A stretch of 64,000 nucleotides of DNA from Candidatus Wildermuthbacteria bacterium. Its GTDB lineage: Bacteria > Patescibacteriota > Minisyncoccia > Minisyncoccales > UBA10102. Below are positions 4,676-21,330 of the stretch, piece after piece. Position numbers and translations under genes: made by a program. The DNA lies in contig JACOZJ010000005.1 in NCBI GenBank assembly GCA_016181405.1, forward strand, positions 25,309 through 89,308. The letters run 5' to 3'. The first letter of the stretch is position 1; each line of letters begins with the position of its first letter. The notes beneath the pieces were generated by a model. It saw only the letters and a program-made list of their open reading frames with translations, was not told the DNA's origin and did no database searches.

Positions 4676-4900
4676 ATGGATCAAGAGAAAGGAGTTACAA
4701 TAGACGATTTGGCTCGGATGGTGCAAAAAGGATTTGAAGAGACTGCAAAGACAAGCGAAGTACGTGTGGAGTTTGACGAAGTTAAGGAGCGGCTCGATCG
4801 CATCGAGAATATTCTGCTTGCAGAGAATCGCCGAAGAATCGAAAAACTTGAAGATCAAATGCGCGAGGTTCGCGATGCACTGGCAATGAACAATAAATAG
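4676..4900 (+). CDS. small coiled-coil protein (paralog of 35157-35279)
   Basis: The ORF track starts at 4667, inside the -10 box, so the ATG at 4676 (MDQEKG...) is more plausible. It shares RRRIEKLEDQ and near-identical DNA with the mini-gene at 35157. Confidence 0.5.
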   Translation: MDQEKGVTIDDLARMVQKGFEETAKTSEVRVEFDEVKERLDRIENILLAENRRRIEKLEDQMREVRDALAMNNK

Positions 4901-4925
4901 AATTTTCCCCTCGTAAACACGATAG

Positions 4926-4950
4926 CTGCGCAAATGCGCAGTTTTGTTTT
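4926..4950 (+). terminator. rho-independent terminator
   Basis: CTGCGCA-AA-TGCGCAG stem-loop followed by TTTTGTTTT. Confidence 0.6.
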
Positions 4951-4976
4951 ACAGAAATATAATGTACATTGGGATT

Positions 4977-5873
4977 ATGAAGCAGGTGAGCTTTACGCAG
5001 TTGATGACGTATGTGCGATGCCCGGAGCACTATTTGTTTCGTTATGTGTTGGGAATCCGCCGCCAGCCGCGCAAGGTTTTCAAACATGGTTTTGCTATGC
5101 ACGAAACCTTGCAATATCACTTTGAGCAAAAGAAAGCAGACGGAAAGGGGATAGCGCTGGCTGAAGCAAAAGAGTTTTTTGTGGACTCTTTCGGAAGCGC
5201 GCTGGAGGATTATAAGCAGGAACTCGAAGAGGCGCGCCCGTATCTCACGCGGGAATATCTTTCAAAAGAAAAACACGTAAACGTAGGCGATATGATCGAC
5301 ACGGGATTGAAGGGACTCGAAGTATATTTTCGGCATTTGAATCCGTATATCGATCCGGATTTGGTGGAAGAGCCTTTCGCTTTTTCGGTGCGGCCGGGCC
5401 TTGAGGTGGTGGGCCGTATGGATCTTACCGATAAAAAAGACGTGATTCATGAGTTAAAGACAACAAGAGTTACGCCCAATCATCAGGATATTCGAACAGA
5501 CGCTCAAATTTCGATTTACCAAATCGGGTATAAAGAAGTTACTGGGCGCGCGCCAAAGGGTTTAAGCAAGGATTATATCGTGCTTTCAAAAAACAATTCA
5601 AAGATAGTTCGCTTTCGTGTGGTCCGGCCTTTTATCGATAAGAAAACAGTGTTGCGCAGCATAGAAACAATTATGGACGCCGTGCAAAAGAACATTTTTT
5701 TCTGTTTGCATCCCGCAGAATCCTGGATATGTTCCAAGGAATGGTGCGCGTATTACAAGCTTCACCAAGAAATCAAAAAACTTGGTTTCCAGGCGTTTAT
5801 GGAAAAATACGCCCCTCGCTACCACTCACGCCGGCAATCAAGTACGCTGGACACAAAAGGCAAAAATGCGTAG
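4977..5873 (+). CDS. PD-(D/E)XK nuclease family protein (second copy)
   Basis: The ORF is open from 4944. MKQVSFTQLMTYVRCPEHYLF looks like the family N-terminus. Also GRMDLTD...VIHELKTT (D..ExK), QISIYQIGY and C-terminal CSKEWCAYY. The start is uncertain. Confidence 0.6.
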   Translation: MKQVSFTQLMTYVRCPEHYLFRYVLGIRRQPRKVFKHGFAMHETLQYHFEQKKADGKGIALAEAKEFFVDSFGSALEDYKQELEEARPYLTREYLSKEKHVNVGDMIDTGLKGLEVYFRHLNPYIDPDLVEEPFAFSVRPGLEVVGRMDLTDKKDVIHELKTTRVTPNHQDIRTDAQISIYQIGYKEVTGRAPKGLSKDYIVLSKNNSKIVRFRVVRPFIDKKTVLRSIETIMDAVQKNIFFCLHPAESWICSKEWCAYYKLHQEIKKLGFQAFMEKYAPRYHSRRQSSTLDTKGKNA

Positions 5874-19137: not shown

Positions 19138-19353
19138 ATGGCTACCTCAATTTCAACAAAAACAAGCTCGGTGAAACAGCTTCAAAGAGAAGTAGAGCTG
19201 CTCCGCTCTTTTGTGATCGGCCAAACAGGAAGGGATCCAGAGGGTGAATACAGGCCAGAGTTTGTAAAAAAAATACTCAAGGCGGCACAGGAACCTCCCG
19301 CGTATGAGTTTACAGATGCCGATTCTTTTTTGAAACATATCCGCGGCAAATAG
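19138..19353 (+). CDS. putative antitoxin of the downstream RelE/ParE-family toxin
   Basis: 71 aa, 6 nt upstream of the toxin gene in the classical antitoxin-toxin order. I did not recognise the family. Confidence 0.45.
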   Translation: MATSISTKTSSVKQLQREVELLRSFVIGQTGRDPEGEYRPEFVKKILKAAQEPPAYEFTDADSFLKHIRGK

Positions 19354-19359
19354 TGAGCT

Positions 19360-19623
19360 ATGGTAAGAGTGTACTACAGCGGCCGCTTCAGGAAGAGCGT
19401 GAAACGCTTGAATGAAAAACAGCAAGCCCAGTTAGCACGGCTTGTTGTTTTGTTGAAAGAGAATCCGTTTGACTCGTTGCTCCATACGAAGTCCCTATCG
19501 GGGCGGCTTGCCGGCATTTATTCGTTTCGCATTACTAGAGAATATCGGGTGCTTTTCAGGTTTTTGTCTCCCGATGAAATTCTCCTTATCGACGTGGGAG
19601 GCCGAAAAGATATTTACCGGTAA
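19360..19623 (+). CDS. type II toxin, RelE/ParE (plasmid stabilisation) superfamily
   Basis: 87 aa. ...FRKSVKRL...LKENPF...[38 protein letters not shown] is the typical pattern. Confidence 0.75.
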
Positions 19624-19640
19624 TTATATATATACCAATT

Positions 19641-19715
19641 ATGTCTTTATCCGTCGGAATTGTTGGGTTGCCGAATGTGGGGAAATCCACGCTGTTTCAG
19701 GCGCTTACGAAAAAG
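19641..19715 (+). pseudogene. ychF: 5' fragment of ychF (Obg-like ATPase) carrying the P-loop
   Basis: [25 protein letters not shown] is the YchF N-terminus with the G1 motif. Homology is then lost and the frame stops at 19772. Confidence 0.8.
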
Positions 19716-19768
19716 AAGAGGAGAAGCTTGACCTTAAATATATTTTTGAGTACAATGCGAGTAAGTAT

Positions 19769-19993
19769 ATGAAAGAGATTGCTCCGCAAGTTACAACCGA
19801 CGAAAAAACGCAATTTGGCAAACCCGTGATTGCCGGCACAAGAGTGCCGGTAGAGGTTGTTATTGGCCATATCGCCACGGGAGACGCCATTGAAACAGTG
19901 ATGAAAGAATACGGACTGACCCGAGAACAGGTTTTGGCTGCTTTGAAATATGCCGCAAAACTTGTTGGCGAAGAAATGCTCATAGCCAAATAA
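19769..19993 (+). CDS. DUF433 domain protein (putative antitoxin)
   Basis: 74 aa. [47 protein letters not shown] matches the DUF433 pattern. It overlaps the next gene by 1 nt (TAATG). Confidence 0.7.
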
Positions 19994-20358
19994 TGCTTTT
20001 TCTTATTGATGAAAACACCACATCTTCAATAAGGACTTTATTTGAAGAAAAGGGATTCGCGGCAGAATGTGTGAAAGATATACACGAACTTCGCGGCCAA
20101 CCCGACGAAGTCGTTTTTGATTACGCAGTCGCCAAGCAAGCCGTTATTGTTACAAAAGATCTCGGATTCGCCAATCCGATTAGATTCCCATTATCTCAAC
20201 TGATCGGTTTGGTTGTTTTACGATTTCCAAATGAAATTTCGGTGACTATCCTGTATAAAGAAGTTGAAAGGCTGATTGAAGGAATGGAGGAACAAGACTT
20301 CCGTAAGCGAATAATTGTAATTGAGCCGGGCAGTGTCCGTTCACGCCGTCTCCCATAA
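19993..20358 (+). CDS. DUF5615 (PIN-like/Mut7-C-like) protein (putative toxin)
   Basis: 121 aa. [22 protein letters not shown]...DEVVFDYAVAKQAVIVTKDLGFAN is typical of DUF5615 partners of DUF433. Confidence 0.65.
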   Translation: MLFLIDENTTSSIRTLFEEKGFAAECVKDIHELRGQPDEVVFDYAVAKQAVIVTKDLGFANPIRFPLSQLIGLVVLRFPNEISVTILYKEVERLIEGMEEQDFRKRIIVIEPGSVRSRRLP

Positions 20359-20368
20359 CACATATCAA

Positions 20369-21330
20369 ATGTCTGCACTATCCGTCGGAATTGTGGGGAA
20401 GTTCCCGATGAGCGGCTGCAAAAGCTTGCTGATTTTTTCCAGTCCAAGAAAGTCATCCCCACGATTATTGAGTTTGTGGATATCGCGGGCCTGGTGCGCG
20501 GGGCAAACAAGGGCGAAGGTTTGGGCAATCAGTTTTTGGCGAACATACGCGAGGTGGACGCCATTGTGCAGGTGGTACGCTGTTTTGAAAACGCGAATAT
20601 ATCGCATGTGGATGAAACGATAGATCCTTTGCGCGATATGGAAACGGTCCAGACAGAATTGATTCTGAAAGATTTAGAAACTCTGCAAAAACGACTGGCA
20701 AGCGTTGAGAAAGAAGCGCGGGCGCAAAACAAAGAGGCAACGGCGCGGCAAACCGTGTTGCAAGGGCTTCTGCGGAGCATGAATCAGGGGGTTCCGGCGT
20801 TTCAGTTCGTAAAAGAAAATCCCGACAGCGCAGAAACAATACACGAATTGTTTCTTCTTTCCGCGAAGCCAACCCTTTATTTATTGAACGCCGATACGGA
20901 AAAAGAGGCGGCTGGAGCGATTTCATACGCAAAAAAGCTCGGAGCGCCCTACGCGGTAATGAATATTAAAGAAGAAGAGGAGAAAGTGGGGCTTTCGCCA
21001 GAGGAGCTTCGCGAATTGGATTTGTCTGCGCCGCGACTCCCCGAACTCATCACAAAAGCATATGAAGCGCTTGGCTTGATTACATTTTTTACCACCGGAC
21101 CCGATGAAACTCGAGCGTGGACCGTGCGATGCGGCGCCAAAGCGCCGGATGCCGGCGGCGCGATACACAGCGACTTTAAAGAGAAGTTTATCCGGGCGGC
21201 CGTGATTCAATGGGATACATTGCTTAAGGCCGGCGGCACGGCAGAGGCCATGGCGCAAGGGCTTATTCGTACGGAAGGCAAAGAATACGTTGTGAAAGAT
21301 GGAGATGTCATAGAGATCAAGCATGGATAA
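20369..21330 (+). pseudogene. ychF: ychF body lacking the P-loop, with a frameshifted duplicated start
   Basis: ATGTCTGCACTATCCGTCGGAATTGTGGGG repeats the 19641 start. The YchF-homologous frame (EVPDERLQKLADFFQ...IIEFVDIAGLVRGANKGEGLGNQFL...C-terminal TGS-like GKEYVVKDGDVIEIKH) differs from that ATG frame, and about 35 residues including GLPNVGKST are absent. Confidence 0.8.

What the first reader, a model, noticed from the sequence alone, without database searches (positions are those of the whole stretch)
19641..21330. ychF is broken by a DUF433/DUF5615 toxin-antitoxin cassette flanked by a duplicated gene start
The segment 19641-19715 encodes [25 protein letters not shown], the YchF N-terminus with its P-loop, and homology then stops. 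A DUF433 gene (19769-19993) and a DUF5615 gene (19993-20358) follow. At 20369 the start is repeated as ATGTCTGCACTATCCGTCGGAATTGTGGGG, compared with ATGTCTTTATCCGTCGGAATTGTTGGG at 19641. There it joins directly, and out of frame, to ...EVPDERLQKLADFFQ.... The rest of a normal YchF continues to 21330. Neither copy is intact. The first lacks everything after G1. The second lacks about 35 residues including G1. About 19 residues (the ...ANYPFCTIxPN... region) are absent altogether. A TA cassette has therefore been captured at, or has targeted, the 5' end of a highly conserved GTPase-family gene and duplicated about 28 nt of it.
Basis: partly seen in the sequence, partly recalled or inferred. Interest (0 to 1): 0.6.

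Follow-up and report, generated by a model that had tools for sequence, protein, structure and literature searches.

The report
TA cassette relic interrupting ychF allele
In this groundwater Wildermuthbacteria assembly, 56 bases of the conserved ATPase gene ychF are replaced by a small toxin-antitoxin cassette that carries a leftover end of a recombinase-driven mobile element, but an intact copy of the gene exists in the same population, so this is a strain variant and not a new kind of system.

Summary
In detail: window 19641-19717 is a ychF 5' stub, 19769-20358 is a DUF433/DUF5615 (PIN-like) toxin-antitoxin pair with its own promoter, 20369-20398 is a second ychF-like start, and 20399-21330 is the rest of ychF, out of frame.

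1. Independent assemblies from the same site have 100%-identical flanks and an uninterrupted 354-aa ychF. Compared with that allele, the window has 56 nt replaced by 681 nt.
2. The second start is not a duplication of the local start. The same piece follows the homologous cassette (86% nt) in another Wildermuthbacteria genome. It matches 29/30 nt the start of a ychF gene that lies directly downstream of a large serine recombinase (LSR) in a related contig.
3. In a large CPR-wide LSR family, about 75 of the 120 closest homologues read into a ychF 5' end. The recombinase's 3' coding region doubles as a surrogate ychF start.

The block is therefore best read as a recombinase-less relic (TA module plus attR-side remnant) that reached its present position by non-site-specific recombination. 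ychF is already a published LSR integration site, in pipolins. A mis-assembly cannot be excluded without reads.

The parts
19641..19717 (+). Native ychF 5' stub (nt 1-77; P-loop, aa 1-25). The ORF runs on into the insert and stops at 19772.
   Evidence: It is 100% identical to Logan contigs L096-L098 and contiguous with the upstream YoeB-like gene. It is 92% identical to the L001 ychF start, including the upstream AATT.
19718..20398 (+). 681-nt inserted block that replaces 56 nt of ychF (nt 78-133 of the intact allele).
   Evidence: L101 joins window 19717 to 20399 through AGTAGATATTGCCAATTATCCTTTTTGCACGATTGAGCCCAATGTGGGCATCGTGA, giving an in-frame 354-aa YchF.
19718..19726 (.). 9-nt filler GAGGAGAAG of unknown origin, between the ychF stub and the cassette's -35 box.
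   Evidence: It is absent from the L084 copy, where the ychF stub abuts the -35 box directly.
19728..19756 (+). Cassette promoter TTGACC-17 nt-TACAAT.
   Evidence: 10 of 12 matches to consensus. The equivalent -35/-10 boxes are conserved at the left edge of the cassette in L084, L081, L082 and L083, with unrelated DNA upstream.
19769..19993 (+). DUF433 (COG2442) antitoxin-type gene, 74 aa.
   Evidence: Pfam PF04255 1.5e-18. 85% aa identity to the L007/L084 copy. NCBI protein MBI2098723.
19993..20358 (+). DUF5615 PIN-like toxin-type gene, 121 aa. Its ATG overlaps the antitoxin stop codon (TAATG).
   Evidence: Pfam PF18480 1.6e-13, weak PIN_10. D6, E7, D38, E39 and D56 are invariant in 17 homologues. 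90% aa identity to P0001.
20367..20398 (+). 'Second start' S: AA+ATGTCTGCACTATCCGTCGGAATTGTGGGG. Interpreted as the attR-side remnant of an LSR element, made of the last codons of the recombinase (NVCTIRRNCG in its frame), which double as a surrogate ychF start (MSALSVGIVG), plus a few bases past the inferred crossover.
   Evidence: 29/30 identical to L105:4879-4908, where it starts a complete 355-aa ychF and overlaps the LSR 3' end. 17 nt are shared with L084:10376 after the homologous cassette.
20399..21330 (+). ychF nt 134-1065 (aa 45-354), in the -1 frame relative to the ATG at 20369. It lacks G1 and G2.
   Evidence: 100% identical to L101-L104. NCBI annotated it as a 322-aa YchF starting at ATA 20362 (P0030 = MBI2098725).
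19138..19623 (+). Neighbouring, separate TA pair (DUF2683-like plus YoeB/ParE-like toxin) in the variable slot between the patatin gene and ychF. Context only, not part of the insert.
   Evidence: In L001 the slot is occupied by a different gene pair. The pair is present in Logan contigs L096-L100.

Best explanation
Shown: relative to an intact allele found in the same groundwater population, the window carries a replacement. ychF nt 78-133 (the segment coding KVDIANYPFCTIEPNVGIV) are replaced by a 681-nt block. The block consists of 9 nt of filler, a sigma-70-type promoter, a DUF433 antitoxin gene, a DUF5615 PIN-like toxin gene (a VapBC-type PIN-COG2442 module), and 32 nt that resemble a ychF start. 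The gene is dead in this haplotype: what remains is a 25-aa P-loop stub and a frame-shifted 3' part without G1 and G2.

Inferred: the 32-nt piece is a fossil of the right end (attR side) of a large-serine-recombinase integrative element. In related CPR bacteria that element sits immediately upstream of ychF, and the last conserved codons of its recombinase double, in another frame, as a surrogate ychF start codon plus 6-8 N-terminal codons. The crossover lies at about ychF nt 25 (the G-I-V-G codons). A decayed element that had lost everything between its TA module and the ychF start gave rise to the TA-fossil fusion now seen in both the window and L084.

Inferred: the block has no recombinase, its left end is at ychF nt 77 and not at the crossover, and target DNA is missing. 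It therefore reached its present configuration by illegitimate or homology-assisted recombination and/or deletion between ychF-like sequences, not by site-specific integration or transposition. The TA module probably persists because losing it would be toxic (post-segregational killing), although this was not tested. The cassette-bearing and intact alleles most likely coexist as strain variants.
For: Intact allele: L101 equals window 22618-20399 at 100%, then 56 nt, then window 19717-19688. L102 also runs through position 20399 into the 56 nt. The reconstruction is an in-frame 354-aa YchF, 94% identical to L001. L001 has an intact ychF in the same synteny.

The second start travels with the cassette: L007/L084 has the same cassette (86% nt over 651 nt; DUF433 85% and DUF5615 90% aa) followed by ATGTCTGCACTATCCGT and then unrelated DNA, while its own ychF starts ATGAGC.

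Link to the recombinase: L105 and L106 (recombinases 86% identical) and L110-L113 (69%) each have the recombinase gene running into a complete ychF of 355-365 aa whose start is extended (MSALSV, MSYSILSV, MSSTKLAI). By contrast, 67 of 71 ychF genes without the recombinase have exactly 5 codons before GIVG.

Family-wide pattern: at least 68 (BLAST) to about 75 (motif) of the 120 closest recombinase homologues end in a shifted-frame translation of the ychF P-loop region. About 37 share the sequence up to ...KTSxRH and then continue with a different conserved tail. At the DNA level the L114 gene encodes MSMCSLTIGIV in the shifted frame and diverges after GGCATCGT.

TA identity. The PIN-COG2442 pair was predicted as a TA system (PMC2701414) and tested as vapBC10 (PMC3834315).

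Not a transposon: no terminal inverted repeats, and no transposase or recombinase hit in the window.

The cassette is autonomous: the -35 box is conserved as its left edge in five unrelated contexts.
Against: No reads were available, so neither junction (19717/19718 or 20398/20399) is verified, and haplotype frequencies are unknown. The exact window TA proteins occur only in the NCBI MAG and in no Logan assembly, although the flanking YoeB-like protein occurs in five runs. The left end (attL) and the free form (attP) of the ychF-linked recombinase element were never observed, because the contigs end inside the element. The crossover position is therefore inferred from the divergence of protein tails plus one DNA example. 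The fossil is only about 30 nt, and an MSALSV-type start could in principle be a natural ychF variant. The 237-nt ychF stub in L084 is far longer than an attL arm should be. The present structure needs at least two events, or one double illegitimate event, and I cannot order them. Whether the TA module was cargo of the element or inserted later is not resolved.
Confidence: 0.6

Rival explanations
1. Chimeric assembly. The organism's ychF is intact, as in L101. The block, together with ychF-like flanks, belongs to another locus or to a co-occurring close strain or species, and the assembler threaded it into the ychF locus through shared k-mers in the conserved P-loop region.
For: A contiguous ychF with 100%-identical flanks exists in independent assemblies. 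The exact TA proteins are absent from all Logan assemblies. A related organism with a similar relic (L084) comes from the same study site. Logan contigs break inside the conserved 5' region, at 19694, 19698 and 19717.
Against: Both junction sequences must exist in real reads somewhere, because k-mer assemblers do not invent them. The left shared segment is only 77 nt, so large-k contigs need reads that link the YoeB-like upstream region to the cassette. The window cassette is only 86% identical to the L084 copy, so it is not that copy. L097 ends exactly at 19717 and L101 exactly 30 nt upstream of it, as expected if a second continuation exists at that point in those samples too.
Confidence: 0.22
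2. The TA cassette itself targeted or was captured at the ychF 5' end, and duplicated about 28 nt of the local gene start as a target-site duplication.
For: Two similar starts flank the cassette.
Against: The copies differ by a 3-nt indel and a mismatch. The right copy is shared with L084 and L105, where the local or native starts are different. 56 nt of target are deleted. There are no inverted repeats and no transposase. Other copies of the cassette lie after a tRNA gene, after a methyltransferase gene, or upstream of lepA, with no ychF pieces nearby.
Confidence: 0.04
3. No recombinase element is involved. The cassette once sat just upstream of an ordinary ychF that happened to start MSALSV. 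A fragment spanning the cassette and the first 30 nt of that ychF was imported by homology-facilitated illegitimate recombination, using ychF as the anchor.
For: In L084 the upstream stub is identical to the native ychF for 52 nt and then diverges, as after a homologous crossover in the conserved P-loop region. The slot upstream of ychF varies between relatives. Other cassette copies show illegitimate junctions, for example the toxin truncated at aa 52 in L083.
Against: The only full ychF with the MSALSV start is the recombinase-linked one in L105. Extended N-termini are typical of recombinase-linked ychF genes, although 2 of 71 ychF genes without the recombinase, L053 and L075, also have them. 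This rival differs from the best explanation only in the origin of the 30-nt piece, and the recombination step is the same.
Confidence: 0.12
4. Programmed, reversible gene interruption (active-lysogeny-like switch). The block excises to restore ychF under some conditions, which would explain why both alleles coexist.
For: Both alleles exist with identical flanks. Recombinase-linked elements at ychF could act as switches, and a defective pneumococcal prophage next to ychF has been proposed to control its expression (PMC8637289).
Against: The window has no recombinase. The 56 nt needed to restore the gene are absent from the cassette haplotype. The flanking repeats are out of register and out of frame, so excision could not regenerate the intact allele.
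Confidence: 0.02

Closest known systems
PIN-COG2442 (DUF433) VapBC-type toxin-antitoxin modules, e.g. vapBC10 (ssr2962/slr1767) of Synechocystis PCC 6803 (PMC2701414, PMC3834315)
   Same: A DUF433 antitoxin-type gene lies first and a PIN-like toxin gene second. They form a bicistronic unit with overlapping stop and start codons and their own promoter. The acidic residues are conserved.
   Different: The toxin matches the DUF5615 branch of PIN-like domains, and its relationship to VapC10 was not measured. Toxicity, neutralisation and autoregulation were not tested. The host is a CPR bacterium.
LSR-encoding integrative elements that use ychF as integration site: pipolins of Actinomycetota (bioRxiv 10.1101/2024.05.22.595293); also the defective S. 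pneumoniae prophage whose int gene lies directly upstream of ychF (cited in PMC8637289)
   Same: A mobile element with its recombinase gene lies next to the ychF 5' end. Loci L105, L106 and L110-L113 show that arrangement.
   Different: The CPR elements carry primase/helicase-type and DUF5681 genes, and no piPolB was seen. The recombinase is only about 32% identical to anything in the annotated plasmid and phage collections. The window holds only a ~30-nt remnant and no recombinase. The cited passages do not mention the overlap of the recombinase 3' end with a surrogate ychF start.
Integrative elements that carry a replacement end for the gene they integrate into (phage 21 and e14 in E. coli icd) or whose attP lies inside the integrase gene (SSV1-type); own knowledge, not checked here
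   Same: Integration keeps the target gene functional because the element supplies the displaced end. The recombinase reading frame is altered by integration.
   Different: Here the replaced end is the 5' end. The surrogate start is encoded in an alternative frame of the recombinase's own C-terminal codons. Neither point has been shown experimentally.
Homology-facilitated illegitimate recombination during natural transformation (de Vries and Wackernagel 2002; own knowledge)
   Same: Foreign DNA is joined at one side through a conserved homologous segment and at the other through little or no homology, with loss of recipient DNA.
   Different: No experimental system exists here. The junction microhomologies are minimal. 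The number and order of events are unknown.

Membership tests
VapBC-type PIN-COG2442 (DUF433) toxin-antitoxin module | Antitoxin with a COG2442/DUF433 domain | tested here: met
   PF04255 E = 1.5e-18, full-length match 1-56 of 56
VapBC-type PIN-COG2442 (DUF433) toxin-antitoxin module | PIN-like toxin with conserved acidic active-site residues | tested here: met
   PF18480 DUF5615 1.6e-13 and weak PIN_10. D6, E7, D38, E39 and D56 are invariant in 17 homologues down to 48% identity.
VapBC-type PIN-COG2442 (DUF433) toxin-antitoxin module | Two-gene operon, antitoxin upstream, translationally coupled, with its own promoter | tested here: met
   The TAATG overlap at 19991-19995. Promoter TTGACC-17-TACAAT. 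The same architecture is seen in L084, L081-L083 and L088-L095.
VapBC-type PIN-COG2442 (DUF433) toxin-antitoxin module | The toxin arrests growth and the antitoxin neutralises it | not testable with these tools
   Requires expression experiments, as were done for vapBC10 (PMC3834315).
Large-serine-recombinase integrative element (attL-element-attR) | Encodes a large serine recombinase | tested here: not met
   tblastn with the L105 and L106 recombinases finds nothing in the 64-kb window at E < 1e-5.
Large-serine-recombinase integrative element (attL-element-attR) | Conservative insertion at a defined crossover, with no loss of target DNA | tested here: not met
   56 nt of ychF are missing. The left junction is at nt 77 and the right at nt 134, whereas the inferred crossover is at nt ~25.
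Large-serine-recombinase integrative element (attL-element-attR) | Element-derived arm of attR adjoining the target gene | tested here: met
   Window 20369-20398 is 29/30 identical to the recombinase-overlapping ychF start in L105. It is a remnant only.
Transposon/IS insertion with target-site duplication | Identical short direct repeats generated from the target, terminal inverted repeats, and a transposase | tested here: not met
   The repeats differ by a 3-nt indel plus one mismatch, and the right copy is shared with other genomes. No inverted repeats were found at the block ends. No transposase is present.
YchF/Ola1 P-loop ATPase (functional gene) | The G1 P-loop, G2-G4 and the C-terminal YchF domain in one reading frame | tested here: not met
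   The gene is split and frame-shifted in the window. The criterion is met by the allele reconstructed from L101, 354 aa.

The most novel reading that the evidence does not exclude
A very large LSR family, widespread in CPR/Patescibacteria, has its attachment site inside the 3' end of its own gene, and its last conserved codons encode, in a second frame, a surrogate start and N-terminus for YchF. Integration at ychF nt ~25 would then simultaneously swap the recombinase's C-terminal ~45 residues and re-head ychF, placing it directly downstream of the recombinase gene. The recombinase-less TA-plus-attR relics seen in the window and in L084 would be decay products of such elements, and might still move between genomes using ychF-like arms.
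Probability: 0.45. Interest if true: 0.6.

Novelty: new member of a known kind. Interest (0 to 1): 0.38.

Why it matters
The finding itself is a gene knocked out by a mobile-element relic in one strain variant of an uncultivated bacterium. It is useful mainly as a caution: NCBI annotates the broken gene as a normal 322-aa YchF that starts at ATA, and a single MAG haplotype can misrepresent gene content. The wider value is in the context. It points to ychF as a recurrent landing site for serine-recombinase elements in CPR bacteria, with an economical dual-coding arrangement that keeps the target gene intact. It also shows how an addictive TA module can outlive the element next to which it is now found. 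If confirmed, the recombinase family offers many natural attB/attP pairs centred on a universally conserved P-loop sequence.

Tried and rejected
1. Target-site duplication or transposition: rejected.
2. A missing segment hidden in another frame: tblastn aligned CTIRRNCG with the CTIEPNTG motif. This is a coincidence of the shifted frame of the start copy, and the real 56 nt are absent from the window.
3. A second ychF in the window: none.
4. A donor ychF starting MSALSV among 101 close YchF homologues: none called as such. The only full example is L105, where the gene caller had hidden it.
5. Other cassette copies with ychF flanks: the metagenome scan gave three more distant copies without them, and the P0002 loci lie next to lepA.
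6. attL or a native stub upstream of the recombinase elements: not found within 5.9-8.4 kb.
7. A complete element through P0238: that recombinase is not next to ychF.
8. The free or attP form in viral contigs, plasmids or phages: three viral scans gave only distant relatives (26-28%) or no matches, and the plasmid and phage searches gave only ~32% relatives.
9. Exact look-ups of the window TA proteins and of P0030 in the contig index: not on record.
10. Recombinase remnants upstream of the two ychF outliers with long N-termini, L053 and L075: none.
11. Site-specific recombination at a pseudo-site to explain the 20398/20399 junction: considered from the sequences, but no register reproduces the observed junction.
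12. The first attempt at the tail screen used the wrong frame and found nothing. It was corrected.
Full report
**What is in the window.**
- An ORF starting at 19641 encodes [25 protein letters not shown] and then loses YchF similarity.
- A 74-aa DUF433 gene (19769-19993; Pfam 1.5e-18) is followed by a 121-aa DUF5615 PIN-like gene (19993-20358; 1.6e-13) whose start codon overlaps the first gene's stop codon.
- At 20369 there is a second ATG followed by a near-copy of the first start.
- From 20399 to 21330 another frame encodes the rest of YchF, including its C-terminal domain (2.3e-32).
- The 20-mer repeat has zero chance expectation in shuffles.
- A promoter-like site TTGACC-17-TACAAT lies just upstream of the DUF433 gene.

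**Source and relatives.** The window belongs to an NCBI Candidatus Wildermuthbacteria MAG (96.6-kb contig, proteins MBI2098722-725). There the downstream piece is annotated as a 322-aa YchF starting at ATA 20362. The closest genome locus, L001, has an intact 354-aa ychF in the same neighbourhood: patatin, a variable slot, ychF, a membrane protein, then tgt.

**An intact allele exists in the same population.** Exact look-ups of the flanking YoeB-like and membrane proteins returned Logan assemblies from five runs (SRR12113383, SRR12113384, SRR12113420, SRR12113422, SRR12113430) that are 100% identical to the window.
- L101 equals window 22618-20399, then 56 nt absent from the window, then window 19717-19688. 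L102 also runs through 20399 into those 56 nt.
- Splicing the 56 nt between 19717 and 20399 gives an in-frame 1065-nt ychF, 94% identical in protein to L001, with the ANYPFCTIEPN segment.
- In the window, then, 56 nt are replaced by 681 nt (19718-20398).
- The exact window TA proteins occur only in the NCBI MAG, not in any Logan assembly. This probably means the MAG's source run is not among those indexed, since the Logan contigs of this organism are only 1.3-2.3 kb.
- L097 ends exactly at 19717 and L101 exactly 30 nt before it, which is what a graph branch at the left junction would produce. But L101 and L102 cross 20399 without a break. Without reads I cannot decide between strain polymorphism, which I favour, and a mis-join.

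**The second start is not a local duplication.** L007, extended as L084 (GCA_016186115.1, a 395-kb Wildermuthbacteria contig from the same study), carries the same cassette at 86% nucleotide identity.
- The L084 cassette is preceded by a 77-aa ychF stub. The stub is identical to that genome's own ychF for its first 52 nt and then diverges.
- The cassette is followed by ATGTCTGCACTATCCGT and then unrelated DNA: an IS30-like transposase, a DGR-like bAvd/RT block, and finally an intact ychF whose start is ATGAGC.
- The ATGTCTGCA-type start therefore travels with the cassette.
- More distant cassette copies (65-85%) lie after a tRNA gene, after a methyltransferase gene (with the toxin truncated), or upstream of lepA, without ychF pieces. 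All of them share the -35 box as their left limit. The TA module is thus a self-contained, promiscuous unit.

**Where the second start comes from.** Among close YchF homologues, a few apparently N-terminally short proteins sit on long contigs.
- Two of them (L105, L106) lie directly downstream of a large serine recombinase, which is preceded by primase/helicase-type and DUF5681 genes.
- Inspection of the DNA shows that ychF is complete in both. The gene caller had assigned its first ~110 nt to the recombinase ORF, which runs into ychF in another frame.
- The L105 ychF starts ATGTCTGCTCTATCCGTCGGAATTGTGGGG (MSALSVGIVG), 29/30 identical to window 20369-20398.
- A 69%-identical recombinase in another lineage (L110-L113) shows the same arrangement, with the start MSSTKLAIGIVG.
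- Recombinase-linked ychF genes have 6-8 codons before GIVG. Of 71 ychF genes without the recombinase, 67 have exactly 5.

**A family-wide pattern.** The recombinase family is very large (1,541 hits at E <= 1e-40, many at 60-70% identity across CPR phyla).
- Of the 120 best homologues, 68 by BLAST and about 75 by motif end in a tail that is the ychF P-loop region read in a shifted frame. For example, NHVEFKTSYRHCRAPECREIYPVQGAHK corresponds to [26 protein letters not shown].
- About 37 share the sequence up to ...KTSxRH and then continue with a different conserved tail.
- At the DNA level, the long-tail gene in L114 encodes MSMCSLTIGIV in the shifted frame and diverges from the ychF-linked genes right after GGCATCGT.
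- I infer that the attachment site lies inside the recombinase gene's 3' end, that the crossover is at about ychF nt 25, and that the recombinase's last conserved codons double as a surrogate ychF start.
- This is inference. I never saw an attL or a free attP, because the contigs end inside the element. A 62%-identical family member is not next to ychF.

**Reading of the window.** In the recombinase frame, window 20367-20398 reads NVCTIRRNCG, matching the L105 tail NVCSIRRNCG.
- It is best explained as the attR-side remnant of such an element, now fused about 10 nt after the TA stop codon.
- That fusion is shared by the window and L084, so it is older than either locus.
- The window block is not itself an integrated element. 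It has no recombinase, the native ychF sequence continues uninterrupted to nt 77, well past the inferred crossover, 56 nt of target are missing, and the remnant is joined out of frame to nt 134.
- It must have reached this state by illegitimate or homology-assisted recombination and/or deletion among ychF-like sequences. I could not reconstruct the steps.
- The 237-nt stub in L084 is likewise unexplained by a simple attL.

**Comparison with known systems.**
- The PIN-COG2442 (DUF433) pair was predicted as a TA system (PMC2701414). One member, vapBC10, was shown to arrest growth and to be neutralised by its partner (PMC3834315). The window pair meets the sequence and architecture criteria; function was not tested.
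- ychF is already a published integration site for recombinase-encoding pipolins in Actinomycetota (bioRxiv 10.1101/2024.05.22.595293).
- A defective pneumococcal prophage with its int gene directly upstream of ychF has been proposed to control ychF expression (cited in PMC8637289).
- A full-text search found no paper combining 'Patescibacteria' and 'large serine recombinase', and the cited pipolin and pneumococcal passages do not mention the dual-coding arrangement.
- The CPR recombinase is only about 32% identical to anything in the annotated plasmid and phage collections.

**Verdict.** The feature is a recombinase-less relic (TA module plus element end) interrupting ychF in one haplotype or assembly, while an intact allele coexists in the population. 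As a finding it is a new member of known kinds (TA cassette, decayed integrative element, strain-level pseudogene) and deserves modest interest. The recombinase family that surfaced along the way is the more interesting lead.

Noticed in passing
L105:3401-4993, L106:3326-5041, L110:8439-10070; proteins P0134-P0253: A very large, well-conserved LSR family (1,541 hits; 60-70% identity across CPR phyla, and also in Bradyrhizobium). In about 75 of the 120 closest members the ORF ends in a shifted-frame reading of the ychF P-loop region. The recombinase's last conserved codons also encode a surrogate ychF start (M-S-x-x-K-L-A-I-G). About 37 members instead carry a longer conserved tail (...TTRH...LIPFEFxIxLPPP).
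   Followed up: partly
window 20362-21330: NCBI annotates the G1-less, frame-shifted downstream piece as an ordinary 322-aa 'redox-regulated ATPase YchF' (MBI2098725) starting at a non-canonical ATA codon, and not as a pseudogene.
   Followed up: yes
window 19138-19623 versus L001:705-1708: The slot between the patatin gene and ychF is variable. The window has a DUF2683-like/YoeB-ParE-like TA pair. L001 has a 243-aa ORF and an 86-aa ORF of unassigned family instead. L084 has purL upstream of ychF.
   Followed up: partly
L084:10393-14421: Between the TA relic and the intact ychF lie an IS30-like transposase (HTH_38 + rve), a 214-aa ORF, and a DGR-like pair (bAvd plus reverse transcriptase). The upstream 77-aa ychF stub is identical to the intact gene for exactly its first 52 nt and then diverges.
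   Followed up: partly
L081:84-680, L082:476-1074, L083:800-1202, L088-L095 around 4777-5366: The DUF433/DUF5615 cassette recurs in unrelated contexts (after a tRNA gene, after a methyltransferase gene, and between a restriction-modification/helicase cluster and lepA). Its left limit is always the -35 box. In L083 the toxin is truncated at residue 52 and fused to unrelated sequence.
   Followed up: partly
window 19712-19724 versus 20971-20983: A 13-nt purine-rich identity (AAGAAGAGGAGAA) links the left junction/filler to an internal part of ychF. It could mark an older, longer ychF fragment next to the cassette, or it could be chance.
   Followed up: no
L053:4857-4900: A ychF with an extended start (MSNASLSIGIVG, 8 codons before GIVG, like the recombinase-linked genes) but no recombinase upstream. 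It may be another relic of the same kind of element.
   Followed up: partly
Logan contigs L096-L098 and L101 (window 19688-19717): Contig ends fall exactly at the last base shared by the two alleles (19717) and 30 nt before it (19688). This suggests a graph branch at the left junction in runs SRR12113384 and SRR12113430, even though the cassette itself was not assembled there.
   Followed up: partly
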